A program made the position numbers and the translations under genes. DNA of 59,178 nucleotides from positions 1 through 59,178 of the IMG/VR virus record IMGVR_UViG_3300033146_002247. One strand, written 5' to 3'. Shown here one piece after another: positions 4,914 through 44,360 of this stretch. The stretch comes from a virus (lineage: Duplodnaviria; Caudoviricetes). Below the pieces are notes generated by a model that was given only the letters and a program-made list of their open reading frames with translations, was not told where the DNA came from and did not search any database. Positions within the stretch are counted from its first letter, which is position 1, and the number at the start of each line of letters is the position of its first letter.

Positions 4914-4987
4914 GCTCCGGTAGCCAAGTAGTCTAAGGCATCATTCTGCAAAATTGATATTCGCGGGTGCAAATCCCGCCCGGAGCT
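4914..4987 (+). tRNA. tRNA-Cys(GCA)
   Basis: GCTCCGG/CCGGAGC acceptor stem, anticodon loop CTGCAAA, T arm GCGGG-TGCAAAT-CCCGC, U discriminator; no encoded CCA. Confidence 0.88.
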
Positions 4988-5838: not shown

Positions 5839-5909
5839 TGCGGGATATATTAATGGTAGATTGTCGGGCTCATAACCCGTCGGTGGGTGTTCAATTCACC
5901 CTCCCGCTT
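5839..5909 (+). tRNA. tRNA-Met(CAT), initiator type
   Basis: anticodon arm CGGG-CTCATAA-CCCG with three G:C pairs, unpaired 1:72 (T/T), T arm GGGTG-TTCAATT-CACCC; no encoded CCA. Confidence 0.85.
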
Positions 5910-13164: not shown

Positions 13165-13980
13165 ATGAATGTTCCACATAGATTAATGAGATATAGTGGT
13201 AGTAAATATAATTATGTCGAATTAATAATTAATATTATTAGAAGATCAAAAAGAAAAATTTATTTTGAACCGTTTGTTGGTTCCGGTGCAATTTTTATAA
13301 ATTTACCTGATATGTTTGAACAATATTATATTAATGATTTAAATATTAATACTTATTATATATGGCTAGCAATTACCAAATTTACTTATAAAGATTATGT
13401 AGATAGGAAAAAATTTATATTTAATAAATATGGTGACATAGGCAAAAATAAAAAGGCATATTATGATTTTAGAAACTCATATAATAAAAATTTTCATTTT
13501 TTAGAAAATATAGAAAAGGGAATTTATTTATTATTTTTATATAATTCATGTTTAAATAGTTTTGCTAGATTTGGTCCAAACGGATTCAATCAGTCATTTG
13601 GTAAATGTTTTTTTATGTTATCAGAATACGAATTTGTTAATATTCAAAATAGATTAAATAAAACTACAATTACCAATTTGAGTTACGATGAAATAGATTA
13701 TAAAAATTCAGTAATTTTCTTTGACCCACCTTATTTTGAACGTCCTAGTTCATACATTAAAAACTTTGATGTAAATGACTTAACTAAATTTATTTATAAT
13801 GTAAACAAATATTCAAAAGAAAATGATATTGTATACACTGATATATTTAATAATGAAATGTACAAAGAAATGAAAGGTTTTAAATATCAAAAAATTAGAG
13901 AAATGGTAAATGTTTCACCAAATAGGAAAGAAACCAAATTAGATAAAATTGAGGTAATGTATCAGAATTTTATAAAATAA
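13165..13980 (+). CDS. dam: DNA adenine methyltransferase (Dam/D12 class)
   Basis: RYSGSK, YFEPFVGSGAIF (motif I), INDLN, FFDPPY (motif IV). Confidence 0.9.
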   Translation: MNVPHRLMRYSGSKYNYVELIINIIRRSKRKIYFEPFVGSGAIFINLPDMFEQYYINDLNINTYYIWLAITKFTYKDYVDRKKFIFNKYGDIGKNKKAYYDFRNSYNKNFHFLENIEKGIYLLFLYNSCLNSFARFGPNGFNQSFGKCFFMLSEYEFVNIQNRLNKTTITNLSYDEIDYKNSVIFFDPPYFERPSSYIKNFDVNDLTKFIYNVNKYSKENDIVYTDIFNNEMYKEMKGFKYQKIREMVNVSPNRKETKLDKIEVMYQNFIK

Positions 13981-25763: not shown

Positions 25764-27095
25764 ATGAACAAACAATTATTAAAATTAGAAGCAATCGGAA
25801 ACATCACCGGGGCAGGAAGTAAAGTAATTATTCAAGAGGAACTAAGGGAATTATTACAAGATGAAAAAATGAAATATATATTTACGATAGTTCATCACCC
25901 ATTTATAGATTTACCAGTCAAAAAATTTGATATTAAAACCTTTGGCTCTGGTGATTTTGATTTTTATAAATTTAAGGATATTGTAGAAAAATTATCTTAT
26001 GCAAAAGCTAGAAACAATGAACTAGTTGAGCTTGTAGTTAATTTCATTACTGATTTAAAACCTGAGTTACAAAGTATTGTATCAAAAATATTCAGACAGA
26101 GTTTAAAATTAGGATTTTCTACAAAAACAGTAAATAAGGTAATGAAAAAAGATTTTAAAATTAAATCATTTATACCTGAACCGAGTTCAATGCTAGCGAG
26201 TAAAGGAATTAAACACACTGAAAAATTCGGGTCAGAGGTTATAATAAATTGTAAAATGGACGGTAGTAGATTATTAATAACTAAGCAAAAAGGTAATTAT
26301 AAAATATATTCAAGAAATTTTAAAGTTATTGAAAATAGATTTTTTAATAATATATTAAAACAAGTCAATAATCTTACCGAGGGCATGGACAATTTTTTCT
26401 TAGATGGAGAACTTATTTCAAAATATGCAAATGGTGCAGAGAGATTAAAAATTAGTGGTGATTTTACTAGATGTATTAGAGGAACTGCCGAGGAAAATAT
26501 AGATGAAAAATTTATGTATACAATTTTTGATATAAACCCATTAGATGTTTTAGAGGAAGGCGAATCAGAAATATTAACAGAACGAGAAAAAAAATTAGAA
26601 CAATTATTTTTAAATAAAACATATACCAATATTGAAAAAATTAATAGTTATATAGTTAAAAATGATAAGGATATTATTAATAATGAATACCAAAAATTCA
26701 TAGATGCTGGACACGAGGGAATAATTGTTAAGAACATGAATGGTGTATATGTGCCAAAAAGAAGCAGAGACTGGATAAAAATTAAAGCTGAACTTGATGC
26801 AGATTTAGAAATATTAGAAATTAAGTCAGGTTCAGGTAAATATTCAAATACTTGTGGAAAAATATATTGTAAAAGTTCAGATGGAAAAGTAACAGTAAGC
26901 ATTGGTTCGGGTTTATCAGATGAACAACGAGATGAATTATGGAATAACAAGGAAAAATATATCGGTTCGATTGTTGAATGTAATTATAACGAAAAAATTC
27001 AAGATAAACATGGTAATTATTCTTTATTTTTACCAATTTTTAAATTTTTTAGATTAGATAAAGATGTTGCAAATTCTTTTGACGAGATAAAATAA
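25764..27095 (+). CDS. lig: ATP-dependent DNA ligase (T4 gp30-like)
   Basis: KMDGSR, FLDGEL, IFDI, EGIIVK, KRSRDWIKIK, GSGLSD, SLFLPIF..FR.DK. Confidence 0.95.
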   Translation: MNKQLLKLEAIGNITGAGSKVIIQEELRELLQDEKMKYIFTIVHHPFIDLPVKKFDIKTFGSGDFDFYKFKDIVEKLSYAKARNNELVELVVNFITDLKPELQSIVSKIFRQSLKLGFSTKTVNKVMKKDFKIKSFIPEPSSMLASKGIKHTEKFGSEVIINCKMDGSRLLITKQKGNYKIYSRNFKVIENRFFNNILKQVNNLTEGMDNFFLDGELISKYANGAERLKISGDFTRCIRGTAEENIDEKFMYTIFDINPLDVLEEGESEILTEREKKLEQLFLNKTYTNIEKINSYIVKNDKDIINNEYQKFIDAGHEGIIVKNMNGVYVPKRSRDWIKIKAELDADLEILEIKSGSGKYSNTCGKIYCKSSDGKVTVSIGSGLSDEQRDELWNNKEKYIGSIVECNYNEKIQDKHGNYSLFLPIFKFFRLDKDVANSFDEIK

Positions 27096-27128
27096 ATAAA
27101 AATAAAATAAAAAAAAAGGTAAAAAATT

Positions 27129-27428
27129 ATGAAAAAAGAACAAATAAAAGAAATAATTGAAGAAATACTTACTGAGGCTTTCAGTAAAAAATATGAAAAA
27201 ATGTTAGATTGGTTTTTTGATAATTGGTTAGATAACGATGAAGATAATTTGGCAAAAGGTTCTCGAGCAAATTTAGAAAGCGAAATCCATTTATCCGCTA
27301 AAAAACATGGGTGGAACGCTGAGGGTAGTAAATTTATAACAATAGATAAGTGGTTCGATGAATTATTAAGCAACAAAGATAAAGAACCATTAGATGCATT
27401 ATATAAAATTTATAAAAAATGGAAATAA
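27129..27428 (+). CDS. putative internal head protein, leader class A
   Basis: MKKEQIKEIIEEILTE; upstream ATAAATAA. Confidence 0.6.
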   Translation: MKKEQIKEIIEEILTEAFSKKYEKMLDWFFDNWLDNDEDNLAKGSRANLESEIHLSAKKHGWNAEGSKFITIDKWFDELLSNKDKEPLDALYKIYKKWK

Positions 27429-27696
27429 GGGTTAAAAATGTATTATATAATTATATGTTATTTATTGTTATCTTTTTTGGTAGGAATGATATTAGTTAAT
27501 AAAAATGATAGCTTATTAAGTATAGCAGAGATAGGATTGTTATTTTTATTAATGTTATTCTCACCTTTTACAATTATTTGGCTAGGATTTAAAGGTTTTA
27601 AATTATTAAAATCTGAACTTGATTGGTTAAATGAAAATCATTAGAATATTCAACAAAATTAGTCCTTTATATTAAAGGACTAATTTTGTTTTATTG

Positions 27697-27785
27697 GTTC
27701 ATTAGTAGTACATTCCTTTCACTTTCTCAATTCAACCATATAATTTTATCATTTCATATAGTATGTACACTAAAAGGTAACTAAA
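27697..27785. repeat. dispersed intergenic element, copy 3
   Basis: identical to copy 1 and preceded by the same 15-bp hairpin stem. Confidence 0.92.
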
Positions 27786-27796
27786 TATCTTTTTTC

Positions 27797-27825
27797 TTGA
27801 CAAAACATATAAAATTGGTTATATT
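27797..27825 (+). promoter_or_regulatory. sigma70-type early promoter
   Basis: TTGACA-N17-TATATT. Confidence 0.85.
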
Positions 27826-28253
27826 ATAGATATAAAGAGAATGATAAACAAATTCAAAAGGAGTTAAATATGTTAATTTGGAGAAAAGAAGAACTTAAAA
27901 GCGAGTGCTTAGGTGGAAAATTACCAGAAGAACTAATTGATATGAAAGAGTTCAAAGGATATTATGTTGCTAAAATTTCTAAAACTTTTTATAAAAATGG
28001 TTATTCTGCTTGGGACGGACGTGTAGAACGAATTATTTGGAAAGTTAGAAAAATTGATACTGATATTGTAATTTGGTTTACAGGTTATACCAGAAAAGAA
28101 GCAATAGGTAATTTAGAACGAAATATCAAAAACTTTGGATATTGTAATAAACATGACTCTACATATCCTAAAGGATTTGCAAATGAAGAATGTCCATTAT
28201 GCAGAAGAGATAAAAGAATACAAAATACATAATGAAAATCAAAGGAGTAATAT

Positions 28254-28793
28254 ATGTCAACAAGAAATTTTAGTACAAATAATTCATCTGTAATCTTTGC
28301 TTTTGGTGACGATGAATACGAATATATTTTTGATGAAATAAGAACATCAATTAAAAATGGTGGATTTGAATATGTCGACATGACTGAAATTGGTGAAACT
28401 ATATATGATGGTGAAATTTTAGGTACTGTTTATTCACCAAGTAAATCATACAAAGAATTTTCAGTTGAATTGAAATTAGATATAATTGTTAGGTCTGGCT
28501 ATTATGAAGGCGGAAACTTTGATTGGGATTTAACACTTGATGTTGAAGGCGAGACATACGAATATGAAAATGGTGAGTTTGATTATGAAAATATAGCTAA
28601 AGATTTAATGTATACATACGATTATTCAGAAAAAAAAGCTGAGCAGTATGCTGGATATATCAAAACATTTATTGATTCTGAGGCTGAGGAAATTATAATT
28701 AAAACTGAACGTATAATTTCAGAAAACACAACAAAATTAGGAATATCAGCTCAATTTTCAAATGGAGAAACTTGGTATACAAAAATATCTTAA
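28254..28793 (+). CDS. acidic hypothetical early protein
   Basis: 179 aa; RSGYYEG and FSNGETWY motifs; D/E/Y rich. Confidence 0.6.
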   Translation: MSTRNFSTNNSSVIFAFGDDEYEYIFDEIRTSIKNGGFEYVDMTEIGETIYDGEILGTVYSPSKSYKEFSVELKLDIIVRSGYYEGGNFDWDLTLDVEGETYEYENGEFDYENIAKDLMYTYDYSEKKAEQYAGYIKTFIDSEAEEIIIKTERIISENTTKLGISAQFSNGETWYTKIS

Positions 28794-28801
28794 TCTTTTC
28801 C

Positions 28802-28830
28802 TTGACTAAATAACATTAAATGGTTATATT
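28802..28830 (+). promoter_or_regulatory. sigma70-type early promoter
   Basis: TTGACT-N17-TATATT. Confidence 0.8.
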
Positions 28831-28889
28831 ATAGAGATAAAAGAAAATGATAATCGGAACAATTGATAAACAAATTGAGGTATTAAAAA

Positions 28890-29351
28890 ATGAATTATAA
28901 CAATTTAACAAAATCAGAATTAATAGAGCTTTTAAATGAAAAATCAATCAATGAAAAATTTGCTACTGATAATTCAAACTCTGCTAGACTATCAATGCAA
29001 AGGGTAATAAATAAATCTAAATGTGATTGGCAACAAGAGCATTTCGTAGTGACTTTCTTAAATGCTAAATTAAAAGAAATAGATACTCAAATTGTGTTTA
29101 TTGGACATCAAACTGCTAGCATAGTTTCTGCAAAAGAGATTTTTAGAAGAGCATTAAAAATGAATGCAAATTCAATCATAGTCGGACACAATCACCCAAC
29201 GCTCGATGTTTCACCAAGTGAGAATGATAATAAAGTAACAACTAATTTGATAGAGGTTGGAAAAATGATTGGTATTCCTGTACATGATCATATTATTTTT
29301 ACTAAATTTGACGAAATTTATTCATACAAAGAAAAAAGTTCTTTATTTTGA
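28890..29351 (+). CDS. radC: RadC-family JAB domain protein
   Basis: QEHFVV.FLN, KEIFRRAL..NA.SII.GHNHP...SPS..D...T, GIPVHDHII. Confidence 0.9.
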   Translation: MNYNNLTKSELIELLNEKSINEKFATDNSNSARLSMQRVINKSKCDWQQEHFVVTFLNAKLKEIDTQIVFIGHQTASIVSAKEIFRRALKMNANSIIVGHNHPTLDVSPSENDNKVTTNLIEVGKMIGIPVHDHIIFTKFDEIYSYKEKSSLF

Positions 29352-29379
29352 AATAAATAAGAATAAAATGAGGCTATAA

Positions 29380-29940
29380 ATGTTAAAACGACAATTAGAA
29401 AAATTTATACAAGATTTTGGAGACCATTATCTATTTGAAAACTCTCTGGGTAGAATATGGCAACATTCTAAAAATGGGTTTATTCTAATGTCATCTTTTA
29501 GAGGAAATGATTTTAAAAAAAATATGAGTAATCATAAAGAATTAAAATCTATATTAAAAAGTAAAAATTTAGGTTTTTTTGAAGTTAATGGAGTATATAA
29601 ATATGATAATGGTGATGTTGAAAATGAATTATCTGTATTTATTCCTTATAGAAAAGACAAATATACATTTAATGAATTCGTTGAAATAGGAAAGGCACTA
29701 AGAAAAAAATTTAACCAAGAAAGTATTTTAATTTCAGATAATAACGAAAACATATATTTACAATATTCAAATAAAAAAGAAACTATAGGTAAAAAAATTA
29801 CAGTAGATAAAGTAGGATTTGCATATAGTCAACTAAGAACTGGTAGTCATAAAGACAGAACCTTTATAATTGAATCTGTCAGAAAACCATATAATCATAT
29901 ACAAGCTTATAAATTTAAAGCTGAAAATCTATTATTTTAA
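29380..29940 (+). CDS. SAM lyase-like protein with class B leader
   Basis: MLKRQLE...LFE leader; ILMSSFRGN..KNMSNHKEL...G.Y...ENELSV...FNQESILI resembles T3 SAMase motifs. Confidence 0.6.
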   Translation: MLKRQLEKFIQDFGDHYLFENSLGRIWQHSKNGFILMSSFRGNDFKKNMSNHKELKSILKSKNLGFFEVNGVYKYDNGDVENELSVFIPYRKDKYTFNEFVEIGKALRKKFNQESILISDNNENIYLQYSNKKETIGKKITVDKVGFAYSQLRTGSHKDRTFIIESVRKPYNHIQAYKFKAENLLF

Positions 29941-29950
29941 GGTAATTATT

Positions 29951-30559
29951 ATGTTAAAAAGAAATTTAAAAGAAAGTTCATTGAGTAGAATATGGCAACA
30001 TACAAAATCTCACGATAGTGGAACTATAACAGCATTTAGATATGCTAAGGATTGTAATACTGGAGAAGTTTTTACAAAATCTGAAAATAAAACTAATAAT
30101 AATATTCTAAAAGGAAAATTATTAAAGTTAGGATATGGAGTTACTGCTATTGCAGGAACTTATATTGAAAATTATGGAACAGATAACGAAAAAGAAGTAA
30201 AAGAGGATAGTTATATCGTAGTAGATTTAAAAGATACTGGAAATTTAAAAAAAGATTTAATAAAATTAGGAACTGAATTTGAACAAGATAGTATTACATA
30301 TCAAAAATTAGGTGGAAGTTATGAACTAATTTCAAGTAATAAATGCCCTCAAGGTTATCCGGGTAAAGGTAAGATTGGTGTTTCTTTAAAATTAGGAAAA
30401 CCAATGTTCGGCAAATCTGGTGAATTTCATAGTAAAATAAACGGAAGACCATTTGTATTTGAAAGCTCATTGCAAGAAAATTTACATACATTAAATAAAT
30501 TTTCAATTGCTGAAATCAGGTCCTTTGATTATTGGGCAAAGGAAACAATTATAAAATAA
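29951..30559 (+). CDS. SAM lyase-like protein with class B leader (paralog of previous gene)
   Basis: true start ATG 29951 (MLKRNLKE); shares SL.RIWQH with previous gene; ITAFR...EN...GTYIE...KEDSY...FEQDSI. Confidence 0.6.
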   Translation: MLKRNLKESSLSRIWQHTKSHDSGTITAFRYAKDCNTGEVFTKSENKTNNNILKGKLLKLGYGVTAIAGTYIENYGTDNEKEVKEDSYIVVDLKDTGNLKKDLIKLGTEFEQDSITYQKLGGSYELISSNKCPQGYPGKGKIGVSLKLGKPMFGKSGEFHSKINGRPFVFESSLQENLHTLNKFSIAEIRSFDYWAKETIIK

Positions 30560-30568
30560 GAAGGTTAT

Positions 30569-32023
30569 ATGTTAAAAAGAAATTTAAGTGAAGTTTATTT
30601 TGGTGGTCAAACATTTGACATACAAAAAAACCCTGATTATGTAAAATATTTAGAGCCTATTATATCTAAATTAAAAAAATCTAGCAAATTAGTTTTTAAA
30701 AAATCAACTGGCGTAGTGTTATCATTAAAAGGAAATTTAAAAACTGGAATTAAAAATTATAATTCTGCTGTTGCTAAGGATAAAGAAATTATTATTTCGA
30801 CTAGTAGTAAAAAAGAAATTCAATCATTTTTACAATCTTTTCATAATCCTATATTTGTGACAAAAAATGGTGAGTTTCCTTTATCGCAGTTAGATAAAAG
30901 TCCTTTTACTATTGGTAGTAAAAAAGATACTCACAAAAAAACTGAGTGTAGTGAAATATGTAGTTTAATAGCATGTAAACTAATGTCAATAGGAAATGGT
31001 GAGGTTTTAAATAATGAAAATCAATTTAAAAAAATATTAAAAACTTATGTGTCCTCCGCGGTATATAAATTATACGAAACCAATTATTGGAAATCTGCAA
31101 AAATACAGGCCAAATTGTTAGTTGATTCCTTATATTTTGATTCAAGTATAAATTATACTTTTGTTATGCGAGATAACGCAGATATTAAAAAAATGTATCA
31201 AACTGCGATAAAATTAATCAAAAAAACTGGTTTAAAATATAGTTATGATGACTGGAACCCTGCGGATATGTGGGCATATAGATCAGTGAGTGACATCACC
31301 AATCTTAGTGAAATTAATAATATTATTAAATATAATGAAACGGTGAATTTGTTAATAAAAGAGAAAAAGTTATTGCCAATTTCATTAAAGTTAATAAAAG
31401 GCGATACTGGTAAATGTACAAAAATACTTATGAATAGTACAAACAATTTATACCTTAGAGGCATATCTTCAATAGACTTATCATCATCATTAAATAATTT
31501 AATTATATATTCTAATGGTTCGAATAATGATAAATTTGGAGTAAGATTAGGATATAAACGAAATAAAAATTCTGCGATAATAGATGCTGAGGGTAGAATG
31601 AAAAATGCAGGGGTTCAATTAGGTGGAATTAATAAAGGTATTTATTTAAAATATATGAATGATTATACAAATGGTGTTATAGATGGTATACAGAATTTAG
31701 GAAATGATGAAGAAAAAAAGAGGAAAATAATTGAAAAATATATAACTATTTTTACCAACGTAAAATCTAAATTTGGTAACAAATTAAAAATTAAGGATAA
31801 TACAGGGCGAAATGCATTTCATAATATAAGCGAGATAGAAAGTGTTAATCATTGGTTAAGTCTAAATAATGTTGATATTAGTAGAGGTTTAGTAATGATT
31901 TCTAATTTATATGCAATATATTATATGTTTACGAATGGACATATTAATAATTATTTTTATGATATGTTTTTATACTCTCAAAAAATCACCGAAATTGGAA
32001 CTGATTATTTAAAATTATACTAA
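30569..32023 (+). CDS. putative PD-(D/E)xK-like nuclease with class B leader
   Basis: MLKRNLSE; TECSE...DDWNPADMWAY...PISLK. Confidence 0.5.
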   Translation: MLKRNLSEVYFGGQTFDIQKNPDYVKYLEPIISKLKKSSKLVFKKSTGVVLSLKGNLKTGIKNYNSAVAKDKEIIISTSSKKEIQSFLQSFHNPIFVTKNGEFPLSQLDKSPFTIGSKKDTHKKTECSEICSLIACKLMSIGNGEVLNNENQFKKILKTYVSSAVYKLYETNYWKSAKIQAKLLVDSLYFDSSINYTFVMRDNADIKKMYQTAIKLIKKTGLKYSYDDWNPADMWAYRSVSDITNLSEINNIIKYNETVNLLIKEKKLLPISLKLIKGDTGKCTKILMNSTNNLYLRGISSIDLSSSLNNLIIYSNGSNNDKFGVRLGYKRNKNSAIIDAEGRMKNAGVQLGGINKGIYLKYMNDYTNGVIDGIQNLGNDEEKKRKIIEKYITIFTNVKSKFGNKLKIKDNTGRNAFHNISEIESVNHWLSLNNVDISRGLVMISNLYAIYYMFTNGHINNYFYDMFLYSQKITEIGTDYLKLY

Positions 32024-32052
32024 AAAACTAAATAAAAAAATGAGGCGAAAAA

Positions 32053-32544
32053 ATGAACATGAAAGAAATTGTAAACGAAGTACTAAACCGAACTAATTTA
32101 ACTGAATCAGAAATTTTACAAATTGATGAAAAAACTAGTGAATTGGTATTGAACTCAATGAAAGAACTAGTTTTAAAATTAAACAAGGATAAAAAATTAA
32201 AATTATCTAAAGAAGAACTAGAGAATATTACTAAACATGCTGCAGATGTTTTTCAGAAATCTATTAAAAAATCAGTTACTGAACAATATTTAAAAGAATT
32301 TAATTTAAAGTTAAATAACGATGATTATTACGAGGTTCTTGTTCAATATTTAGAAAAAGACAGAAATGATTATATTGGTGAATTTATGTATGACCATGCT
32401 GGTAGTGATGCTGCATTGCCTGACGAGGTTGTAGAGGAATGGTTAGATCGAATGGACTATGAGACATTAAGAGACTGTGTGTTATGGATTTTGAAAAAAG
32501 ATAAAAAAACAATGAATAAAATAATATCAAAATTTAAAAAATAA
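32053..32544 (+). CDS. putative internal head protein, leader class A
   Basis: MNMKEIVNEVLNRTNLTE; upstream TAAATAA. Confidence 0.55.
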   Translation: MNMKEIVNEVLNRTNLTESEILQIDEKTSELVLNSMKELVLKLNKDKKLKLSKEELENITKHAADVFQKSIKKSVTEQYLKEFNLKLNNDDYYEVLVQYLEKDRNDYIGEFMYDHAGSDAALPDEVVEEWLDRMDYETLRDCVLWILKKDKKTMNKIISKFKK

Positions 32545-32555
32545 TGTATATAATA

Positions 32556-32592
32556 TCCTGCATTAACTATCAAATATTCAGTTAATGCAGGA
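32556..32592 (+). other. 13-bp stem-loop
   Basis: TCCTGCATTAACT/AGTTAATGCAGGA. Confidence 0.6.
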
Positions 32593-32989
32593 CTAATAAG
32601 ACAAAGGAGTATAAAGAATGAAATTATTAAGCTGGGAATTTATCGAGGATCACTTTGGGTACAATAAAAAAACTATCAAAAAAGACCAAAGTTACAATTT
32701 ATTAAAACCAATTGAGGTTGGTGTTCCTGTATTTCATGTTATGAAAAAATTAAAAGAATTTACATTTACTGAAGAGGATTTGATGTGGGACAAAACTATA
32801 AAGTTCAATCAAGCGTCTTTAAAATTCAAAGAAAATTATAACAAAGCTATTAATTTAGAATTTGAATTAAAATCTGAAAAAGGACATAGAATTATGTCCT
32901 CAATACTTTATGATTTTGTAAATGACCCAGTCAATACAGATTCATTAGGTGATAACTGGAAACCAATGATTTTTAAAAAATAGGTAATT

Positions 32990-34528
32990 ATGTTAAAACG
33001 ACATTTACACGAAAAAATCAGGCTCGCTAGTATTTCTAAAAAAATTACCAATTTAGAATACGAAAATATATGTAAATTCTTAAATATATTAGTTACTAAC
33101 AAAAATATAAAAAATTGGGGATTTGATATATTAATTAATAAAAACTCTATTAAAAATCAGATTTTAATAGAGTTGAATTTTTTAGAGTTGTTTAATAATG
33201 ATAATAGACGAGAATATATATTAAACATTTTATCTACAACATATATAAAATCTACTCAAACTACTCGATTATTAGGTCCTCAATCCTCACCTAAGTCAGG
33301 GTCTTTGGGTTTATCTAAAATAAAATTCAGTAATATAAATACCCCTATATTTGCTCGAGTATACGGAGCAAAAAGAGGTGGACGACATATAAGTGACACT
33401 GATGAAAAAGAGGCACTGACTATAAAGATGTACAGAGCGAATTTAGGCATTGATTCTTTTTCAAATAGTTCAATTTCTAAATATAAAGAAAAATTAGTCA
33501 AAACCGATACTACTTATGAGTTAGGTGAATCCACTGAGAAAAAAATAAATGAATTTATTTTTTTATCTAGTCAAAATAAAACAACTATGCGATACTGGAA
33601 TGAAAGTTTATCTATAGCAAATAAATTACAAGAAACTTATAAATCACAGGAGTTTTTTTTAATTCGGAATGATTTATATAATAATATTAGAAAACTTTTT
33701 ATGGATATACAAAAATCTACAAAAAATAAAAAAATTAGTATATTAGTAGATAAATGGAACCCCGGTGATGCATATTTAATAAATAAACAACAAGTACATA
33801 ATATTGAATTGAATATAAATAAATTAATTCTTGAAAATAAAACCAAAGTAATTTCAATTGATTTACTTAATAATTTATTTAGTTCTAGTTATGGTAATAC
33901 AAATAAATTAACCTCTATTTCATTAAAGGGTGAGCTTGCTCAAGGTGGTAAAGCAAAGGGCATTTTGAAAAAATATAAAACCAAAGATATGGATTTTAAT
34001 ATTACAGAAACTGAATATAATTATAATTACACTCAATATGTTAATAAAATTAAACAGATGGACTCTCAGTTTATCCAGTTATTAAGACATGTATATTTAC
34101 CAATAAATATAAATTTTTTTACCCAAATAAAAAAATCGAATAATTATATAAATAAAATTAGAACTAAATTTACTAATATGAAAATACTAATGTTTATTGT
34201 AAGAGCAGCCGAAAAAGAGAATGTTAATATATATAAAATATTAATGAGTGTATTTAGGTTTGGATTGTCTATGACTAAAATATCCTCACATTTTTTTAAA
34301 TTAAGTGGAGATTCAAAATATGGACAAGCAAAGGTATTAAATTTTAATAATCATAATTCTATAACTTATGATAATATTAACACATTAAAAATTGATAATT
34401 CAAGTACATTAGCTTCTCATATACGAATTAGCGCAGATTTAAATTTTAATACTGAAATAAAACCCATTAAAATGCAAATTAGAAGTAATGGAAATATACA
34501 AAGTACAATAGAAATTCAATCATTTTAA
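32990..34528 (+). CDS. putative PD-(D/E)xK-like nuclease with class B leader
   Basis: MLKRHLHE; TDEKE...DKWNPGDAYLI...SISLK, motif shared with 30569-32023. Confidence 0.5.
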   Translation: MLKRHLHEKIRLASISKKITNLEYENICKFLNILVTNKNIKNWGFDILINKNSIKNQILIELNFLELFNNDNRREYILNILSTTYIKSTQTTRLLGPQSSPKSGSLGLSKIKFSNINTPIFARVYGAKRGGRHISDTDEKEALTIKMYRANLGIDSFSNSSISKYKEKLVKTDTTYELGESTEKKINEFIFLSSQNKTTMRYWNESLSIANKLQETYKSQEFFLIRNDLYNNIRKLFMDIQKSTKNKKISILVDKWNPGDAYLINKQQVHNIELNINKLILENKTKVISIDLLNNLFSSSYGNTNKLTSISLKGELAQGGKAKGILKKYKTKDMDFNITETEYNYNYTQYVNKIKQMDSQFIQLLRHVYLPININFFTQIKKSNNYINKIRTKFTNMKILMFIVRAAEKENVNIYKILMSVFRFGLSMTKISSHFFKLSGDSKYGQAKVLNFNNHNSITYDNINTLKIDNSSTLASHIRISADLNFNTEIKPIKMQIRSNGNIQSTIEIQSF

Positions 34529-34542
34529 AATTAGAGGTATAT

Positions 34543-35139
34543 ATGCTCAAACGAAAATTAAATGAAAGTCAGAGATCTAAAAATTATTATGATTTATCAA
34601 AATATCCTGGTAAATATTTATTACCAAAATCTTTTTGGTTTAATGTTAGTCAAAAGACCATAGAAGGTTTAAATTATTTGGTACACGACAAAAAACAAAT
34701 TATGAAATTTGGGAAAAAATCAATTGAATTAACCGAAGCATTTAAATTGATAAAAAGTACTACGAATAACGGACACCTTTATAGAGGTTTATATTTAAAT
34801 GAAATTGATGAGTTTTTAAATAATAAAACTACGAAAACTGAGAATTACTTTTCTTTTTCAGAAGATTTAAAAGTAGCTAAAGGATTTGCAGGACAAACAA
34901 AAACTATTTTAGTTTTGAATAAACCTAAAAATTTATTTCCATATTGGAAATTTGCAGTTGACGACAATAGGTTTTTAAAATATTTTTACCCAGAAGATTA
35001 CGAGGATTATGATGGCCCAGGTTTATTAGAAACTGCTTTATATGAAAAAGAGTGGATTTTAAATATTTCTACAAAATTAAGAAAAATACATACAGAGAAA
35101 AAATCAGGTTATCAATTTATACATGTCATTTTAGACTAA
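34543..35139 (+). CDS. ADP-ribosyltransferase-like protein (R-S-ExE) with class B leader
   Basis: MLKRKLNE; LYRGL, FSFSED..VAKGFA, EKEWIL. Confidence 0.68.
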   Translation: MLKRKLNESQRSKNYYDLSKYPGKYLLPKSFWFNVSQKTIEGLNYLVHDKKQIMKFGKKSIELTEAFKLIKSTTNNGHLYRGLYLNEIDEFLNNKTTKTENYFSFSEDLKVAKGFAGQTKTILVLNKPKNLFPYWKFAVDDNRFLKYFYPEDYEDYDGPGLLETALYEKEWILNISTKLRKIHTEKKSGYQFIHVILD

Positions 35140-35214
35140 AATAGCCTTACCATAATTAAATAGTCCTTTAGAAAAATCCTAAAGGACTATTTTTGTTTAT
35201 TTAATTCTTTTTTA

Positions 35215-35243
35215 TTGACAAAACATATTTAATTGGTTATATT
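35215..35243 (+). promoter_or_regulatory. sigma70-type early promoter
   Basis: TTGACA-N17-TATATT, preceded by a TAGTCCTTTAG/CTAAAGGACTA terminator at ~35161-35189. Confidence 0.85.
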
Positions 35244-35893
35244 ATAATCATAATAAAAACAAAAGAGGTAATAAATGGAAGTTAAAATGTCACTAGAAAT
35301 ATTCATTTCAACAGATGAGATTAAAATTGCAACAAAAAAGTCGTTTAAAGAACTAAAAGAATTATTTAAACCAATAATTGATCAAAGAATAAATATTGTT
35401 AATTTTACAGAAAGACCAAATGATTTTAATTTAGATTTTTTAAACTGGGACGAATTAAAAACAATTTATGGATTTACTAAATTCCAAGCACATATAATTT
35501 ATAACTATATGATGTATAATAAAATTGATATTTTAAGGATAACCAAATGAAAAAATCAACCTTACAAAATAAAGTAAAACAATTACAAAAACGATTAAGA
35601 AAAATAAATCGTGAACAATATATTGATTATTCTAAATTTAAAGCCGATGAAACATGGAGCCTTGATATAACTATGGCTAAATTTATTCTACCAAGGATTA
35701 AAGAGTACGATAGATTAGCAAGTAAACAAATTGAATTTTCAGATGAATATAAAAACAATATACAAAATATCATAAAAGCATTTGAAATGATACTTGAAGA
35801 TGAAAGTGAGAAAACTGATTATATAATTAGCAATGATGACGAGAAATTTATTCAAGAACAAATGATAAGTTTCGGTAAATTATTCAGATATTT

Positions 35894-36301
35894 GTGGTGG
35901 TAAATAAAATGAGTGAAATAATAATAACTGAACAATATTTAAAAAACAACCCTGACCATATATTTGTATTTGGCGATAACTTATTAAGATATGGAACTGG
36001 TGGAGCTGCTAAATTAAGATATATGCCTAATACTTATGGATTTATTACTAAAAAAGCACCAACATATAAAGATGAAGATTTTTATAGTCCACATGATTAT
36101 GCATCGGTTTTTAATGATGAAATGATAAAATTATGGGCTGAAATTACTTCAAATAGAGATAAAGTTTATTTAATTTCTAAAATCGGCGCTGGTATTGCAA
36201 ATAAACATAATATTTGGAAATATGTAATTGAACCAAGATTAGAAAAACTTAGACAAATAAATGAACCGAATGTTAAATTTTTATATGAAAGGAGGCAATA
36301 A
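35894..36301 (+). CDS. macro-domain-like phage protein (putative)
   Basis: FVFGDNL...GTGGAA...GFITK...KIGAGIA glycine-rich loops. Confidence 0.55.
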   Translation: MVVNKMSEIIITEQYLKNNPDHIFVFGDNLLRYGTGGAAKLRYMPNTYGFITKKAPTYKDEDFYSPHDYASVFNDEMIKLWAEITSNRDKVYLISKIGAGIANKHNIWKYVIEPRLEKLRQINEPNVKFLYERRQ

Positions 36302-36675: not shown

Positions 36676-37509
36676 ATGAAATATATTTATTTAGACCAAG
36701 TTAATTCACATGTTTTCAGTGCTGGCGAAGTCCATGTTAACATTAGTAATTACTTACCATTAGAAGATGACCATTATACAATTATGGCAACGATTAAAAA
36801 TTCAGATGACTTAATGAAATTGTTGTTATTAGAAGATGCTATACGAAATGAACTTGGTGATTATGAATTACATCTAAATATACCTTATGTTCCTTATGCT
36901 AGGCAGGATAGAGTATGTGCTAAGGGAGATGCATTTTCATTATCAGTATTTGCAAGAATGGTAAATTCTTGTAATTTTACATCGGTTTCTGTACTTGATC
37001 CACATAGTAAGCAAGTAGAAATGTATATTGATAATATTAAAGTATATAATAATTTTGCTTATGTAAAACATATGCTAAAAAAATATAAAATTAAGGAATT
37101 TAATTTGGTTGCACCAGATAAAGGAGCTACTAATAAAATTAATAAATTGGCACATTTTTTAAAAGAAAATAGTGATTTTAGTGTTAATAATATTATTCAA
37201 TTTGACAAAAAAAGAGATATGAAAACAGGAAAAATAATAAGTTATGATATTCAAAAACAGGATAAATTAAAACCAGATGGATTTATTAATATTATCGTTG
37301 ACGATATATGTGATGGCGGTAGAACATTCATAGAAGCAGGAAAAATATTAAATGATTTAGGCAGCGATAAAAATATATTATTCGTAACGCATGGAATCTT
37401 TAGTAAAGGCACAGGAGAACTAAATAATTATTTTTATTCAATTGCAACGTCCAATTCATTAGGTAATAATAGAAATATTGAATATGTAGATTTTTTATTT
37501 TATCAATGA
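36676..37509 (+). CDS. prs: PRPP synthetase-like protein (probable NARP1 Adps)
   Basis: FSAGEVHV, PYVPYARQDR, LDPHS, VAPDKGA, IVDDICDGGRTF, VTHGIFS. Confidence 0.9.
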   Translation: MKYIYLDQVNSHVFSAGEVHVNISNYLPLEDDHYTIMATIKNSDDLMKLLLLEDAIRNELGDYELHLNIPYVPYARQDRVCAKGDAFSLSVFARMVNSCNFTSVSVLDPHSKQVEMYIDNIKVYNNFAYVKHMLKKYKIKEFNLVAPDKGATNKINKLAHFLKENSDFSVNNIIQFDKKRDMKTGKIISYDIQKQDKLKPDGFINIIVDDICDGGRTFIEAGKILNDLGSDKNILFVTHGIFSKGTGELNNYFYSIATSNSLGNNRNIEYVDFLFYQ

Positions 37510-37590
37510 TGAACTAAATTTATACAAAAATATGAAAATTGGCAGAAATTAAAAAGGACAAAAATACGATATAATTAAAATGGAGTAAAA

Positions 37591-42785: not shown

Positions 42786-44360
42786 ATGTCAAATATATTA
42801 GAATGGTTTACTTTTAAACAAAAAGATGATAAAAATAAGGTTGAAAAAACCACTCAAATGAGTGATAACAAAAAAATCAAAGACCCAAAAGATCAAGATT
42901 CTTTAGTGGTTAGAGATGTAACAGATGAATTTAGTTGGCGAGAATTAAATTACGATATAGAAAATCGTAAACAAGATGATGCTAAATTATTATGGTTGCA
43001 ATATGCAGACAATGGAATCATAGATTTTTGTTTAGATGAAATATTAAATGAAGTTATTCCTATGGACGAAGCTAAATTTAATTTTATTTTAAATAAATCG
43101 TTATTAGAAAAAAATCACAAAGAAATAATACCAGAAATTGAACGTTCTATAACTAAAATAGTATCATACTTAGGGTTTGAAGATAATTATATACTTGAAG
43201 ATAATTTTAGAGCATTTATGACAATAGGTCAATTATTTTTCGAGAACATTTACGATAAAAAAGATCTGAAAAAAGGTATTATTTCAATGAAACCGCTTTC
43301 TCCTTTTGGAATGCTAAAAATCAAAGATGAAAAAACAGGAAAATATTACTATAAATATAAAAATAGTGATATTACAAGCGAGGAACCAAGAAAACGAATA
43401 CAATCAATGAACTCTATTTTAATTAAAAAACACAAATCTTTTGATGCTAATATATTTAAAGAAAAGAAAGATGTCTATTTAACTGAACAAATTTCAACAT
43501 GTAATACAGGTAAATACTCCGAAACATTAGGCACATATAAATCTTATATACACGGAGCAATTGCAGATGTTAATAAATTAAACTTGATTGAAGATTCGGT
43601 TGTAATTTATAGGTTGAATAAATCGGGCGATAAAACTATATTTAATGTATATACAGGGCACCTAAAACCTGCCGATCAAGAAAAATATGTTGAAAAATTA
43701 AAATTAAAATATAATCAACGCTTATACTATGATGCAAATAAAGGTGAATTACAAAATCAAAAAGATACTAGAATTTTAAATGAAAATTATTGGTTTCCAG
43801 TGGATGCTCAGGGAAATCAAACTACGATGGACACACAACAAGGTAATCAATTTTCAGTTGGTGAATTAACAGATTTAATGTATTTTAAGGATAAAATCGC
43901 AGAACACTTCAGAGTACCTCATAATAGATTGAGACACAACGAAGAGGGTGGTAGTGAATTTTCTATATTTAGTGCTAATAATATTCAGATGGATAAAAAC
44001 GATATTCGTTTTAGAAAGGCCTCACTAAGAAAATTTTTAATGTTTCAAGATTTAATTATAGATGCAGTTAAATCAGATTTGGTTATACAAGAAATTATTT
44101 CACCAGGTGATTTTGATTTACTAAGACCTTTAATTAAATTTCAACACCCTACAGAGGATAACTTTGCTAATTCTGCAGAACAAACTAGAATGGAAAATAA
44201 CAATAACATTGCAGAAAGTTTTGAAAGTGCAATTGAAAAGGGGTATATATCAAAACAATGGGTGAAAGATAATGTATATAAACAAAGTAAAGAGGTTCAA
44301 GCTCAAATAAAAAAAGAAATAGAGCAAGAAAAAAAAGAAAACCCTGACGAAGATTATTAA
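42786..44360 (+). CDS. portal protein (T4 gp20-like)
   Basis: LNLIEDSVVIYRL, FNVYTGHL, YDANKGE, ENYWFP, DLMYF..K....FRVP..RL; 524 aa. Confidence 0.92.
   Translation: MSNILEWFTFKQKDDKNKVEKTTQMSDNKKIKDPKDQDSLVVRDVTDEFSWRELNYDIENRKQDDAKLLWLQYADNGIIDFCLDEILNEVIPMDEAKFNFILNKSLLEKNHKEIIPEIERSITKIVSYLGFEDNYILEDNFRAFMTIGQLFFENIYDKKDLKKGIISMKPLSPFGMLKIKDEKTGKYYYKYKNSDITSEEPRKRIQSMNSILIKKHKSFDANIFKEKKDVYLTEQISTCNTGKYSETLGTYKSYIHGAIADVNKLNLIEDSVVIYRLNKSGDKTIFNVYTGHLKPADQEKYVEKLKLKYNQRLYYDANKGELQNQKDTRILNENYWFPVDAQGNQTTMDTQQGNQFSVGELTDLMYFKDKIAEHFRVPHNRLRHNEEGGSEFSIFSANNIQMDKNDIRFRKASLRKFLMFQDLIIDAVKSDLVIQEIISPGDFDLLRPLIKFQHPTEDNFANSAEQTRMENNNNIAESFESAIEKGYISKQWVKDNVYKQSKEVQAQIKKEIEQEKKENPDEDY

What the first reader, a model, noticed from the sequence alone, without database searches (positions are those of the whole stretch)
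29380..30559. Tandem SAM-lyase-like paralogs with packaging leaders
Seen: both ORFs share SL.RIWQH, then (S/T)(S/A)FR...N....L...L...G.Y....E.S....F(N/E)Q(E/D)SI. From memory this matches the order of motifs in T3 SAMase (VSAFR..NMSRH..G.Y.E..EE.TV..WEQDCVL). Known: T3 SAMase counters type I RM and BREX, and related lyases degrade the SAM-AMP signal of some type III CRISPR systems. Inference: pre-packaged SAM or SAM-AMP lyases, possibly a hetero-oligomer or two specificities. The phage also encodes a SAM-dependent Dam, which favours transient action at entry or a non-SAM substrate.
Basis: inference. Interest (0 to 1): 0.74.

Follow-up and report, generated by a model that had tools for sequence, protein, structure and literature searches.

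The report
Likely injected SAM-lyase pair, T4-like phage
Two neighbouring genes of a distant T4-like phage encode enzymes of the family that destroys S-adenosylmethionine, and both carry a short leader that probably loads them into the phage head, so they could disarm host defences as the DNA enters.

Summary
ORF A (29380-29940, 186 aa) and ORF B (29951-30559, 202 aa) are diverged paralogs: BLASTP 29% identity, and family profiles match at 99.9% probability.

Both are SAM lyase family members.
- Both score above the Pfam PF23780 cut-off.
- The ORF A family profile hits T3 SAM lyase (E 2.6e-8) and Svi3-3 (E 7.5e-4).
- Both models have T3 SAM lyase as best solved match (Z 9.9 and 9.1).
- The Gly-x-Tyr, Glu and Gln-Glu/Asp-Ser active-site positions are kept.

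The packaging-leader idea is also supported, by sequence only.
- Five + strand ORFs between 29380 and 35139 start with MLKR.
- Each leader ends in hydrophobic-x-Glu, the published cleavage motif of the T4 prohead protease.
- The phage is T4-like (gp20 portal).
- In relatives the leader differs between genomes, but unrelated genes of one genome often share it.
- Five of five larger related records encode the gp21-type protease.

Still inferred: enzyme activity, presence in virions, and SAM versus SAM-AMP as substrate. I found no paper joining SAM lyases with head targeting, so I rate this a new variant of a known kind.

The parts
29380..29940 (+). ORF A, 186 aa, SAM lyase family paralog (A-type). 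Active-site positions G71-x-Y73, E83-x-S85, Q113-E114-S115.
   Evidence: PF23780 49.4 bits against cut-off 28. Family profile A4 hits T3 SAM lyase at E 2.6e-8 and Svi3-3 at E 7.5e-4. Model pLDDT 87.4. 7ock_L Z 9.9 with 126 residues aligned. Foldseek top 7 are all SAM lyases.
29380..29439 (+). Proposed propeptide of ORF A, residues 1-20. It starts with the MLKR head-targeting leader and ends L18-F19-E20 just before the conserved NSLGRIWQH.
   Evidence: In 81 family members the aligned position is Glu in 74, and the residue two before it is L/I/V/F/M in 73. tblastn matches to cyanophage genes begin at residue 21 in 6 of 7 records. pLDDT averages 51 and 69 for residues 1-10 and 11-20.
29951..30559 (+). 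ORF B, 202 aa, SAM lyase family paralog (B-type). Active-site positions G69-x-Y71, E85-x-S87, Q112-D113-S114. Its beta2-beta3 loop is 4 residues longer than in ORF A.
   Evidence: PF23780 31.8 bits against cut-off 28. 844 relatives at E<=1e-3; the 120 listed all carry PF23780. Model pLDDT 85.3. 7ock_L Z 9.1 with 130 residues aligned, 6zm9 Z 6.5. Residue equivalences from hhalign.
29951..29974 (+). Proposed propeptide of ORF B, residues 1-8: MLKRNLKE, with L6-K7-E8.
   Evidence: Glu8 is invariant in 120 family members. Upstream leaders are 2-44 residues long and not conserved. The residue two before Glu is L49/I40/V14/F11/Y3/T2 of 119. Residues 1-8 have pLDDT below 50.
30569..32023 (+). ORF C, 484 aa, leader MLKRNLSE, function unknown. 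Candidate co-packaged protein.
   Evidence: PHROG 1462, unknown function, E 1.6e-6. Atlas neighbours are viral hypothetical proteins only.
32990..34528 (+). ORF D, 512 aa, leader MLKRHLHE, function unknown. Candidate co-packaged protein.
   Evidence: No PHROG or Pfam match.
34543..35139 (+). ORF E, 198 aa, leader MLKRKLNE. A weak lead to Alt-like RNA polymerase ADP-ribosylases.
   Evidence: PHROG 832, E 1.3e-6, over a C-terminal part of the profile only. No Pfam or PDB sequence match. tblastn hits 10 Erwinia phage records, of which one is annotated as ADP-ribosylase.
27652..27690 (+). Terminator-like hairpin (18-pair stem) upstream of the gene block 27870-35139.
   Evidence: Only 2 such sites were found in 27000-36000, and shuffles give a mean of 1.0, so the count itself is not significant.
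35158..35192 (+). Terminator-like hairpin (14-pair stem) directly after ORF E, closing the block that holds all five leader-bearing genes.
42786..44360 (+). Context: T4 gp20-type portal gene, which marks T4-type head assembly.
   Evidence: PF07230 Portal_T4, 212.6 bits. PHROG 213.
13165..13980 (+). Context: Dam-type (D12 class) N6-adenine DNA methyltransferase, a SAM user encoded by the same phage.
   Evidence: PF02086, 72.7 bits. PHROG 56.

Best explanation
ORF A and ORF B are two diverged S-adenosylmethionine lyases of the T3 SAMase / Svi3-3 family, encoded by a distant T4-like phage.

Proposed mechanism:
1. Each is made with a short N-terminal propeptide. It starts with the phage's own MLKR leader and ends in hydrophobic-x-Glu.
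2. The leader targets the protein into the prohead core, as the capsid targeting sequence of T4 internal proteins does.
3. The gp21-type prohead protease removes the leader after the Glu: after E20 in A and after E8 in B.
4. The mature enzymes travel in the head and are ejected with the DNA.
5. In the cell they cleave SAM to methylthioadenosine and homoserine lactone before any phage gene is expressed. This starves SAM-dependent defences such as type I and III restriction and BREX.
6. Because the dose is fixed and not renewed, the phage's own Dam methylase can work later.

Shown here: family membership, fold, conserved active-site positions, the shared leader, and its match to the protease motif.

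Inferred: catalysis, packaging, cleavage, ejection, and the defence targets.
For: Family membership:
- PF23780 is above the cut-off for both ORFs.
- The ORF A family profile hits T3 SAM lyase (E 2.6e-8, 101 profile positions) and Svi3-3 (E 7.5e-4).
- The A and B families are homologous over 157 columns, probability 99.9%.

Fold:
- T3 SAM lyase 7ock_L is the top match for both models: Z 9.9, rmsd 3.9, 126 aligned for A; Z 9.1, rmsd 4.1, 130 aligned for B.
- Svi3-3 is second (Z 6.1 and 6.5). The first unrelated rows are at Z 5.5 and 5.3.
- Foldseek's top 7 for A and top 6 for B are all SAM lyase chains.

Active site:
- Guo et al. name Gly56, Glu69 and Gln104 as strictly conserved, with Tyr58 and Glu105 lining the site (passages of PMC7877911).
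- In 81 ORF A relatives the aligned positions are G 75/81, aromatic 79/81, E 80/81, Q 79/81 and D/E 70/81.
- In 120 ORF B relatives G69, Y71, E85, Q112, D113 and S114 are invariant.
- T3 SAM lyase itself has Gln-Asp at the last site.

Leader:
- Five ORFs carry MLKR. The full pattern occurs 4 times against 0 in 100 shuffles.
- gp21 cuts after L/I-X-E and removes N-terminal propeptides of 7 to 65 residues. Ten residues of IPIII suffice for head targeting (passages of PMC9026906).
- T-even internal proteins are described as diverse defence proteins that share only the targeting sequence (passage of PMC3012670).
- Conservation in both families starts exactly at the Glu.

Leader sharing in relatives:
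- 18 of 58 leader rows from related loci have a non-homologous ORF within 10 kb sharing at least 5 of the first 7 residues. The cross-locus control gives 0 to 0.27 per 20 kb.
- One complete 222,650-base relative has 8 genes starting MLKEII, against 0 for the control pattern.
- Campylobacter phage CP220 has 4 neighbouring genes with M(K/T)F(K/I)(D/G)Y leaders ending INE, FNE, LNE or LYE.

T4-type assembly:
- The window has a gp20 portal, T4 RNA ligase 1 and a gp5-like hub.
- The gp21-type protease PF03420 is present above its cut-off in 5 of 5 larger records that carry an ORF B homolog.
Against: - No gp21-type protease was found in the window itself. The record is estimated at only 28% complete, so this is weak.
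- Leader sharing is not general. 40 of 58 leader rows had no sharing partner within 10 kb.
- In one complete 177,312-base relative, the strict leader pattern matched only the lyase gene itself.
- The invariant Glu and the hydrophobic residue before it could be structural parts of the N-terminal helix rather than a cleavage site. Internal copies of the same motif precede the second domain in fused relatives, which fits either reading.
- The T4 late-promoter motif is not enriched (29 found, 32 expected), so nothing shows late expression.
- Similarity to solved SAM lyases is distant: 10-20% identity and Foldseek E-values of only 4e-4 to 7e-3.
- No assay, proteome or transcript was available.
Confidence: 0.55

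Rival explanations
1. The two proteins are ordinary cytoplasmic SAM lyases, made early after infection as in T3. The shared MLKR start is not a packaging signal. It could be a shared translation-initiation region, or a remnant of gene-start duplication in an AT-rich genome.
For: - The five genes also share an A-rich ribosome-binding region and 22 invariant columns over 75 aligned bases, so some conservation lies at DNA level.
- The only characterised family members, T3 SAMase and Svi3-3, are not reported as virion proteins in the texts I read. T3 SAMase is called the first protein expressed on infection (abstract of PMC8406200).
- No protease gene is in the window.
- One complete relative shows no leader sharing.
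Against: - The leader differs between phages, yet in 119 B-type relatives with leaders of 3 residues or more it ends hydrophobic-x-Glu in 117, right at the edge of the conserved domain. The same holds for 73-74 of 81 A-type relatives. A translation signal would not explain that.
- Non-homologous genes of one genome share the leader.
- The protease that reads this motif is present in 5 of 5 larger relatives.
Confidence: 0.2
2. One or both paralogs cleave SAM-AMP, the type III CRISPR second messenger, or another sulfonium conjugate rather than free SAM. They would then act as injected anti-CRISPR enzymes, and the two paralogs would have different substrates.
For: - SAM-AMP lyases belong to the same PII-like lyase superfamily and share the catalytic Glu and Gln.
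- A phage enzyme of this kind cleaves SAM-AMP but not SAM (sections of PMC12255297).
- That paper links the different conformation of the beta2-beta3 (T) loop to room for the AMP moiety. ORF B's loop is 4 residues longer than ORF A's.
- A phage that needs SAM for its own Dam would gain from sparing SAM.
Against: - Both models are much nearer to T3 SAM lyase (Z 9.9 and 9.1) than to the solved SAM-AMP lyase. Entry 9gab has Z 4.3 at rank 46 for B. For A, Foldseek places 9gad and 9gab at ranks 21 and 38 with probability 0.6.
- The profile search at E<=10 did not list the SAM-AMP lyase.
[quoted passage not shown] The C66A variant stayed active, so this is not decisive.
Confidence: 0.13
3. The two paralogs work only together, as a hetero-oligomer whose active sites form between an A-type and a B-type subunit.
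For: - Active sites of the family lie between subunits (abstract and passages of PMC7877911).
- Among 24 representatives of 300 aa or more, 3 are B-type then A-type fusions (P0127, P0134, P0154) and 1 is A-type then B-type (P0249).
- The same A-type plus B-type pairing is seen in locus L010.
Against: - 49 of 54 related loci have a single lyase-like gene within 10 kb.
- Where a second copy exists, it is usually another B-type gene (L004, L007, L008, L056).
- Both paralogs keep a full set of active-site residues.
Confidence: 0.15
4. The proteins keep the fold but are not enzymes. They could bind SAM or a nucleotide as sensors, or inhibit the host SAM synthetase by binding it, as T3 SAMase also does.
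For: - T3 SAM lyase forms a complex with MetK (titles of PDB entries 7ock and 8bb1; 4:4 stoichiometry in a passage of bioRxiv 10.1101/2023.02.27.530186).
- The fold is shared with ligand-binding PII and CutA proteins.
Against: The positions needed for catalysis are nearly invariant across hundreds of diverged relatives. That argues for retained chemistry.
Confidence: 0.07

Closest known systems
Bacteriophage T3 SAM lyase (SAMase, gp0.3; PDB 7ock, 8bb1)
   Same: - Best solved match of both models (Z 9.9 and 9.1).
- Best sequence-profile match (E 2.6e-8).
- Same order of motifs: SAFR, N-x-x-R-H, G-x-Y, E-x-S/T, Q-D/E.
- Its length covers the C-terminal part of ORF A and ORF B as well.
   Different: - Only 10-17% identity.
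- The T3 enzyme has no MLKR-type leader or SSLSRIW helix in the aligned part. The alignment starts at T3 residues 4-12.
- It is described as an early expressed protein of a T7-like podovirus, not as a virion component (abstract of PMC8406200).
- T3 encodes no Dam (recalled, not tested).
Svi3-3 SAM lyase from an environmental phage (PDB 6zm9, 6zmg, 6znb)
   Same: - Ferredoxin-like PII-type fold.
- Gly56-x-Tyr58, Glu69-x-Ser71 and Gln104-Glu105-Ser106 align with G71-x-Y73, E83-x-S85 and Q113-E114-S115 of ORF A.
   Different: - Shorter protein (146 aa chain).
- Z only 6.1 and 6.5.
- Ser50, which binds adenine and ribose in Svi3-3, aligns with a conserved Gly here.
- No leader.
[quoted passage not shown]
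   Same: - Same superfamily, same catalytic Glu and Gln, and the same lyase chemistry on a sulfonium (sections of PMC12255297).
- The phage form also carries an N-terminal extension.
   Different: - Much weaker structural match (Z 4.3; Foldseek probability 0.6).
- The SAM-AMP-lyase-specific T-loop Cys is absent.
- The extension of AcrIIIB4 is a folded domain of unknown function, not a short leader.
T4 internal proteins IPI, IPII, IPIII and Alt (capsid targeting sequence, gp21 processing, ejection with the DNA)
   Same: - A short N-terminal leader shared by unrelated proteins of one phage, ending in L/I-X-E.
- A T4-type head.
- Cargo with anti-defence or takeover roles (passages of PMC9026906 and PMC3012670).
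   Different: - No sequence relationship of the mature parts.
- The cargo here is a metabolite-degrading enzyme rather than a nuclease inhibitor or an ADP-ribosyltransferase.
- Packaging and cleavage are shown for T4 but only inferred here.

Membership tests
SAM lyase family (Pfam PF23780; T3 SAMase, Svi3-3) | Score above the curated Pfam gathering threshold | tested here: met
   ORF A 49.4 bits and ORF B 31.8 bits against a cut-off of 28. Six-frame search of the record gives 50.1 and 32.3 bits, with 0 of 14 control genomes ringing.
SAM lyase family (Pfam PF23780; T3 SAMase, Svi3-3) | Ferredoxin-like, PII-type alpha-beta fold matching solved SAM lyases | tested here: met
   Models have pLDDT 87.4 and 85.3. 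7ock_L scores Z 9.9 (rmsd 3.9, 126 aligned) and Z 9.1 (rmsd 4.1, 130 aligned). 6zm9 scores Z 6.1 and 6.5. The next unrelated rows are at 5.5 and 5.3.
SAM lyase family (Pfam PF23780; T3 SAMase, Svi3-3) | Conserved Gly56, Glu69 and Gln104 (Svi3-3 numbering), plus aromatic Tyr58 and acidic Glu105 | tested here: met
   ORF A has G71, Y73, E83, Q113, E114. ORF B has G69, Y71, E85, Q112, D113. These follow from the HMM alignment to 6zm9 and 7ock and from hhalign. They are conserved in 75-80 of 81 relatives and are invariant in 120 relatives.
SAM lyase family (Pfam PF23780; T3 SAMase, Svi3-3) | Oligomer with active sites between subunits | not testable with these tools
   Needs size-exclusion chromatography, light scattering or a structure of the purified proteins.
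SAM lyase family (Pfam PF23780; T3 SAMase, Svi3-3) | Cleavage of SAM to 5'-methylthioadenosine and homoserine lactone | not testable with these tools
   Needs an enzyme assay.
SAM-AMP lyase (type III CRISPR-associated; AcrIIIB4) | Catalytic Glu71 and Gln108 equivalents | tested here: met
   Present. They are shared with SAM lyases, so this does not discriminate.
SAM-AMP lyase (type III CRISPR-associated; AcrIIIB4) | [quoted passage not shown] | tested here: not met
   There is no Cys between the G-x-Y and the catalytic Glu: residues 74-82 in ORF A and 72-84 in ORF B. The feature comes from a section of PMC12255297, where C66A remained active.
SAM-AMP lyase (type III CRISPR-associated; AcrIIIB4) | Closest structural similarity to the solved SAM-AMP lyase | tested here: inconclusive
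   For ORF B, 9gab has Z 4.3 at rank 46. For ORF A, Foldseek places 9gad and 9gab at ranks 21 and 38 with probability 0.6. Both lie far below the SAM lyase rows.
T4-type head-targeted, gp21-processed internal proteins | Short N-terminal leader shared by unrelated proteins of the same phage | tested here: met
   Five ORFs start with MLKR. The pattern occurs 4 times against 0 in 100 shuffles. ORFs C, D and E are not lyase homologs.
T4-type head-targeted, gp21-processed internal proteins | Leader ends in L/I-X-E, the gp21 cleavage motif | tested here: met
   The motifs are LKE, LSE, LHE and LNE at residues 6-8 of ORFs B to E, and LFE at 18-20 of ORF A. The motif itself comes from passages of PMC9026906.
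T4-type head-targeted, gp21-processed internal proteins | The phage encodes T4-type head assembly, including the gp21 (Peptidase_S77) protease | tested here: inconclusive
   The gp20 portal is present. The protease was not found in the window, which is about 28% of a genome. It is present in 5 of 5 larger records that carry an ORF B homolog.
T4-type head-targeted, gp21-processed internal proteins | The protein is present in virions with a trimmed N-terminus and is ejected | not testable with these tools
   Needs virion mass spectrometry. The virion protein list of Campylobacter phage IBB_35 (38 proteins, 25 without homologs) is in a supplementary table that I could not open.

The most novel reading that the evidence does not exclude
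Many T4-like phages carry ready-made SAM lyases inside the head and inject them with the DNA. Each genome would use its own targeting leader to define a variable injected cargo. This would include Campylobacter phages, cyanophages and Lak megaphages.

The A-type and B-type paralogs would have different substrates, free SAM and a SAM conjugate such as SAM-AMP. In some phages they would be delivered as one polyprotein, which the prohead protease cuts at an internal hydrophobic-x-Glu site.
Probability: 0.15. Interest if true: 0.8.

Novelty: new variant of a known kind. Interest (0 to 1): 0.62.

Why it matters
SAM depletion is a known phage answer to type I restriction and BREX. As described for T3, however, it depends on the enzyme being made after entry.

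**An enzyme delivered with the DNA would act with no lag.**
- Svi3-3 turns over 9.5 SAM per second at 25 degrees C (passage of PMC7877911).
- By my own estimate, tens to hundreds of injected copies could lower the cell's SAM pool within minutes. That estimate is not computed from data here.

**It would also explain a SAM lyase and a Dam methylase in the same phage.** A fixed, non-renewed dose of lyase would leave SAM available later for the phage's own Dam.

**The family is large and unannotated.**
- 844 relatives were found for ORF B.
- 422 representative clusters were found for ORF A.
- Every cultured-phage record I saw labels the homolog as hypothetical or carries no annotation.

**The leader logic gives a simple way to read the injected proteome from sequence.** A genome-specific N-terminal leader ending in hydrophobic-x-Glu would mark the injected proteins of uncultured T4-like phages. 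Here that points to three further unknown cargo proteins, ORFs C, D and E.

Tried and rejected
- **Single-sequence PDB searches.** ORF A found nothing. ORF B found only a spurious repeat-protein match. The narrow ORF B family profile also found no SAM lyase in the PDB; its link rests on Pfam, hhalign and fold search.
- **Self-assembly.** A prediction of ORF B (residues 9-202, three copies) gave no verdict. It is used neither for nor against oligomerisation.
- **T4 late-promoter motif TATAAATA.** 29 matches against 32 expected. The sigma-70-like scan gave 83 against 75.6 expected. No timing of expression can be read from these.
- **Near-identical DNA in cultured phages.** None found.
- **Prohead protease in the window.** None found.
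- **Leader sharing in a complete 177,312-base relative.** Only the lyase gene itself matched the strict pattern. In a 70%-complete relative there were 2 matches.
- **ORF E as an Alt homolog.** Only a weak PHROG match, and 1 of 10 tblastn hits is annotated as ADP-ribosylase. No Pfam or PDB sequence match. I keep it as a lead, not a finding.
- **ORF C.** Atlas neighbours are unnamed viral clusters. Restriction-endonuclease families appear only at 0.84, which is chance level by the tool's own note.
- **Partner domain fused to lyase domains in relatives.** No counterpart in the window by tblastn (best E 2.2).
- **Literature.**
  - No listed paper held both a head-targeting term and a SAM lyase term; 20 of 30 papers were listed.
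  - 'SAM lyase' with 'virion', 'packaged' or 'injected' gave only papers that mention SAM lyase in passing; 12 of 1,775 were listed.
  - Absence from print is therefore probable but not proven.
Full report
**What is there**

The window is an IMG/VR virus record of 59,178 bases, about 25% G+C. It is estimated at 28% complete. Nearly all long ORFs lie on the + strand.

At the finding's coordinates there are two adjacent ORFs.
- ORF A: 29380-29940, 186 aa.
- ORF B: 29951-30559, 202 aa.

The mechanical ORF list starts ORF B at a TTG at 29870, inside ORF A. The ATG at 29951 is the better start. It has the same AGG-type ribosome-binding spacing as four other genes that begin the same way.

The two proteins are 29% identical (55/191, E 7e-6). 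Profiles of their two families align at 99.9% probability over 157 columns. They are old paralogs, not a recent duplication.

**They are SAM lyase family members**

Sequence evidence:
- Both proteins exceed the curated cut-off of Pfam PF23780: 49.4 and 31.8 bits against 28 (six-frame check).
- Single sequences find no solved structure.
- A profile of 81 diverse relatives of ORF A hits T3 SAM lyase (7ock/8bb1, E 2.6e-8) and Svi3-3 (6zm9, E 7.5e-4).

Structural evidence:
- AlphaFold models are confident: pLDDT 87.4 for A and 85.3 for B.
- An exhaustive structural search puts T3 SAM lyase first for both: Z 9.9, rmsd 3.9, 126 aligned for A; Z 9.1, rmsd 4.1, 130 aligned for B.
- Svi3-3 is second (Z 6.1 and 6.5). 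Unrelated ferredoxin-like folds start at Z 5.5 and 5.3.
- Foldseek's first 7 rows for A and first 6 for B are all SAM lyase chains, though with modest E-values.

**The active site is kept**

Guo et al. 2021 give Gly56, Glu69 and Gln104 of Svi3-3 as the only strictly conserved residues. Tyr58 and Glu105 line the site, and E69Q nearly abolishes activity (passages of PMC7877911).

| Svi3-3 | ORF A | ORF B |
|---|---|---|
| Gly56-x-Tyr58 | G71-V-Y73 | G69-T-Y71 |
| Glu69-x-Ser71 | E83-L-S85 | E85-D-S87 |
| Gln104-Glu105-Ser106 | Q113-E114-S115 | Q112-D113-S114 |

These equivalences come from the alignments.
- Across 81 ORF A relatives the positions are G 75, aromatic 79, E 80, Q 79 and D/E 70.
- Across 120 ORF B relatives they are invariant.
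- T3 SAM lyase itself has Gln-Asp, as ORF B does.

**SAM or SAM-AMP?**

SAM-AMP lyases share the fold and the Glu and Gln. A phage enzyme of that kind cleaves SAM-AMP but not SAM (sections of PMC12255297).

Here the solved SAM-AMP lyase is a much weaker match.
- Z 4.3 at rank 46 for B.
- Foldseek ranks 21 and 38 for A.

I therefore favour SAM as the substrate, but sequence cannot settle it. ORF B's T loop is four residues longer than ORF A's, so the paralogs may differ in substrate.

**The leader**

Five + strand ORFs begin with MLKR.

| ORF | Start | Length | N-terminus | Function |
|---|---|---|---|---|
| A | 29380 | 186 aa | MLKRQLE... then LFE at 18-20 | SAM lyase family |
| B | 29951 | 202 aa | MLKRNLKE | SAM lyase family |
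| C | 30569 | 484 aa | MLKRNLSE | unknown |
| D | 32990 | 512 aa | MLKRHLHE | unknown |
| E | 34543 | 198 aa | MLKRKLNE | unknown |

The full pattern occurs 4 times, against 0 in 100 shuffles. ORFs C, D and E are unrelated to the lyases.

All five lie in one block between two long terminator-like hairpins at 27652-27690 and 35158-35192. The number of such hairpins is not itself above chance.

From the T4 literature:
- The prohead protease gp21 cuts after L/I-X-E.
- It removes N-terminal propeptides of 7 (Alt) to 65 (gp23) residues.
- Ten residues of IPIII suffice to target proteins into the head, from which they are ejected into the cell (passages of PMC9026906).
- T-even internal proteins are described as diverse defence proteins that share only this targeting sequence (passage of PMC3012670).

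The leaders here fit that description. Leu-x-Glu sits at residues 6-8 of B to E, and Leu-Phe-Glu at 18-20 of A.

**Tests of the leader idea in relatives**

*(a) Conservation starts exactly at the Glu.*
- In 120 ORF B relatives Glu8 is invariant.
- The upstream part is 2-44 residues long and not conserved.
- The residue two before the Glu is L, I, V, F or Y in 117 of 119.
- In 81 ORF A relatives the Glu is present in 74, and the hydrophobic residue in 73.
- tblastn matches of ORF A to cyanophage genes begin at residue 21 in 6 of 7 records.
- The models are disordered or of low confidence before the Glu.

*(b) The leader is specific to each genome but shared within a genome.*
- Among 58 leader rows from 54 related loci plus the window, 18 have a non-homologous ORF within 10 kb that shares at least 5 of the first 7 residues.
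- The same leaders tried on other loci gave 0 to 0.27 hits per 20 kb.
- Many of the 18 rows come from near-identical phages, so this amounts to about five independent leader types.
- A complete 222,650-base relative has eight genes beginning MLKEII, all followed by a nearby Glu, against none for the reversed control pattern.
- Campylobacter phage CP220 has four neighbouring genes with the same kind of leader, ending INE, FNE, LNE and LYE.

*(c) T4-type assembly is present.*
- The window has a gp20-type portal (212.6 bits), T4 RNA ligase 1 and a gp5-like hub.
- The portal is under 30% identical to cultured phages, so this is a distant T4-like lineage.
- The gp21 protease family is found above its cut-off in 5 of 5 larger records that carry an ORF B homolog.

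**What speaks against**
- The protease is not in the window, which holds about a quarter of the genome.
- 40 of 58 leader rows had no partner nearby.
- In a complete 177,312-base relative, the strict leader pattern matched only the lyase gene.
- The conserved hydrophobic-x-Glu could belong to the fold. In fused relatives the same motif precedes the second lyase domain. That fits an internal cleavage site, but equally a structural element.
- No promoter signal tells when the genes are expressed.
- There is no proteomic, transcript or enzymatic evidence. The one virion proteome of a phage with a homolog lists its proteins in a supplement that I could not open.

**One enzyme or two?**
- Only 5 of 54 related loci (L004, L007, L008, L010, L056) have a second lyase-like gene within 10 kb, so a partner is not generally required.
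- Among 24 long representatives out of 149, nine hold two lyase-like domains in one chain:
  - three in the order B-type then A-type (P0127, P0134, P0154);
  - one in the order A-type then B-type (P0249).
- This gene-fusion pattern suggests that the two types act together, or are delivered together, in some phages.

**Comparison with what is known, and verdict**

Chemistry and fold are those of the known SAM lyases. The leader logic is that of T4 internal proteins. The combination is what I could not find described: a metabolite-destroying anti-defence enzyme carried in the head (searches; only part of each result list was visible).

The family is large: 844 and 422 relatives. In every cultured-phage record I saw it is annotated as hypothetical or not annotated at all.

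The phage also encodes other anti-restriction functions:
- a Dam-type methylase at 13165-13980;
- an ArdC-like protein at 39654-40553.

My confidence by step:

| Step | Confidence |
|---|---|
| SAM lyase family membership | about 0.9 |
| Active SAM cleavage | about 0.65 |
| Head targeting and processing | about 0.65 |
| The whole chain | about 0.55 |

Rating: new variant of a known kind; interest 0.62.

Noticed in passing
window 30569-32023 and 32990-34528: Two large proteins (484 and 512 aa) carry the same MLKR leader but match no named family. If the leader is a head-targeting signal, they are further injected cargo of unknown function.
   Followed up: partly
window 34543-35139: This leader-bearing 198-aa protein has a weak match to a PHROG annotated as RNA polymerase ADP-ribosylase (E 1.3e-6, C-terminal part of the profile only). 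It also matches Erwinia jumbo-phage proteins, one of ten annotated that way. In T4 the ADP-ribosylase Alt is itself a head-packaged, gp21-processed protein.
   Followed up: partly
proteins P0128, P0129, P0187 and locus L010:9509-10603: In several relatives a lyase-like domain is fused, on either side, to a recurring domain of about 150 residues and unknown function, with a conserved EGKAREE...GWIR(V/L)R stretch. The window has no counterpart by tblastn.
   Followed up: partly
proteins P0127, P0134, P0154, P0249: These single chains hold one B-type and one A-type lyase domain. The hydrophobic-x-Glu plus SSLSR motif is repeated before the second domain. This may be a polyprotein cut by the prohead protease.
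   Followed up: partly
protein P0231 (1665 aa): A giant relative combines SprT-like and PARP-like regions with a C-terminal SAM-lyase-like domain.
   Followed up: no
alignment A3 (ORF B family), positions C35 and C132 of ORF B: Two cysteines are invariant in 120 B-type relatives and have no equivalent in ORF A. They could form a disulfide or a metal site. Distances in the model were not checked.
   Followed up: no
window 6561-7754 and 44770-46032: Two transposase-like ORFs (PHROG 506 and 12300) lie inside the phage genome. The second is just downstream of the portal gene.
   Followed up: no
window 36676-39336: Ribose-phosphate pyrophosphokinase and nicotinamide phosphoribosyltransferase genes lie side by side. 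This NAD salvage pair may counter NAD-depleting defences.
   Followed up: no
window 39654-40553 and 28890-29351: An ArdC-like anti-restriction protein (ArdcN plus zincin-like peptidase domains) is present. A RadC-like JAB-domain protein lies directly upstream of ORF A.
   Followed up: no
locus L055:9914-10606: The ORF B homolog of this 138-kb viral contig is split over three reading frames. It is probably a decayed copy or a sequencing error.
   Followed up: no
PHROG 2226: The PHROG family that best matches ORF A is labelled 'SAM-dependent methyltransferase'. Given the SAM lyase fold and motifs, that label looks like a mis-annotation.
   Followed up: no
window 4914-4987 and 5839-5909: tRNA-Cys (GCA) and tRNA-Met (CAT) genes.
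   Followed up: no
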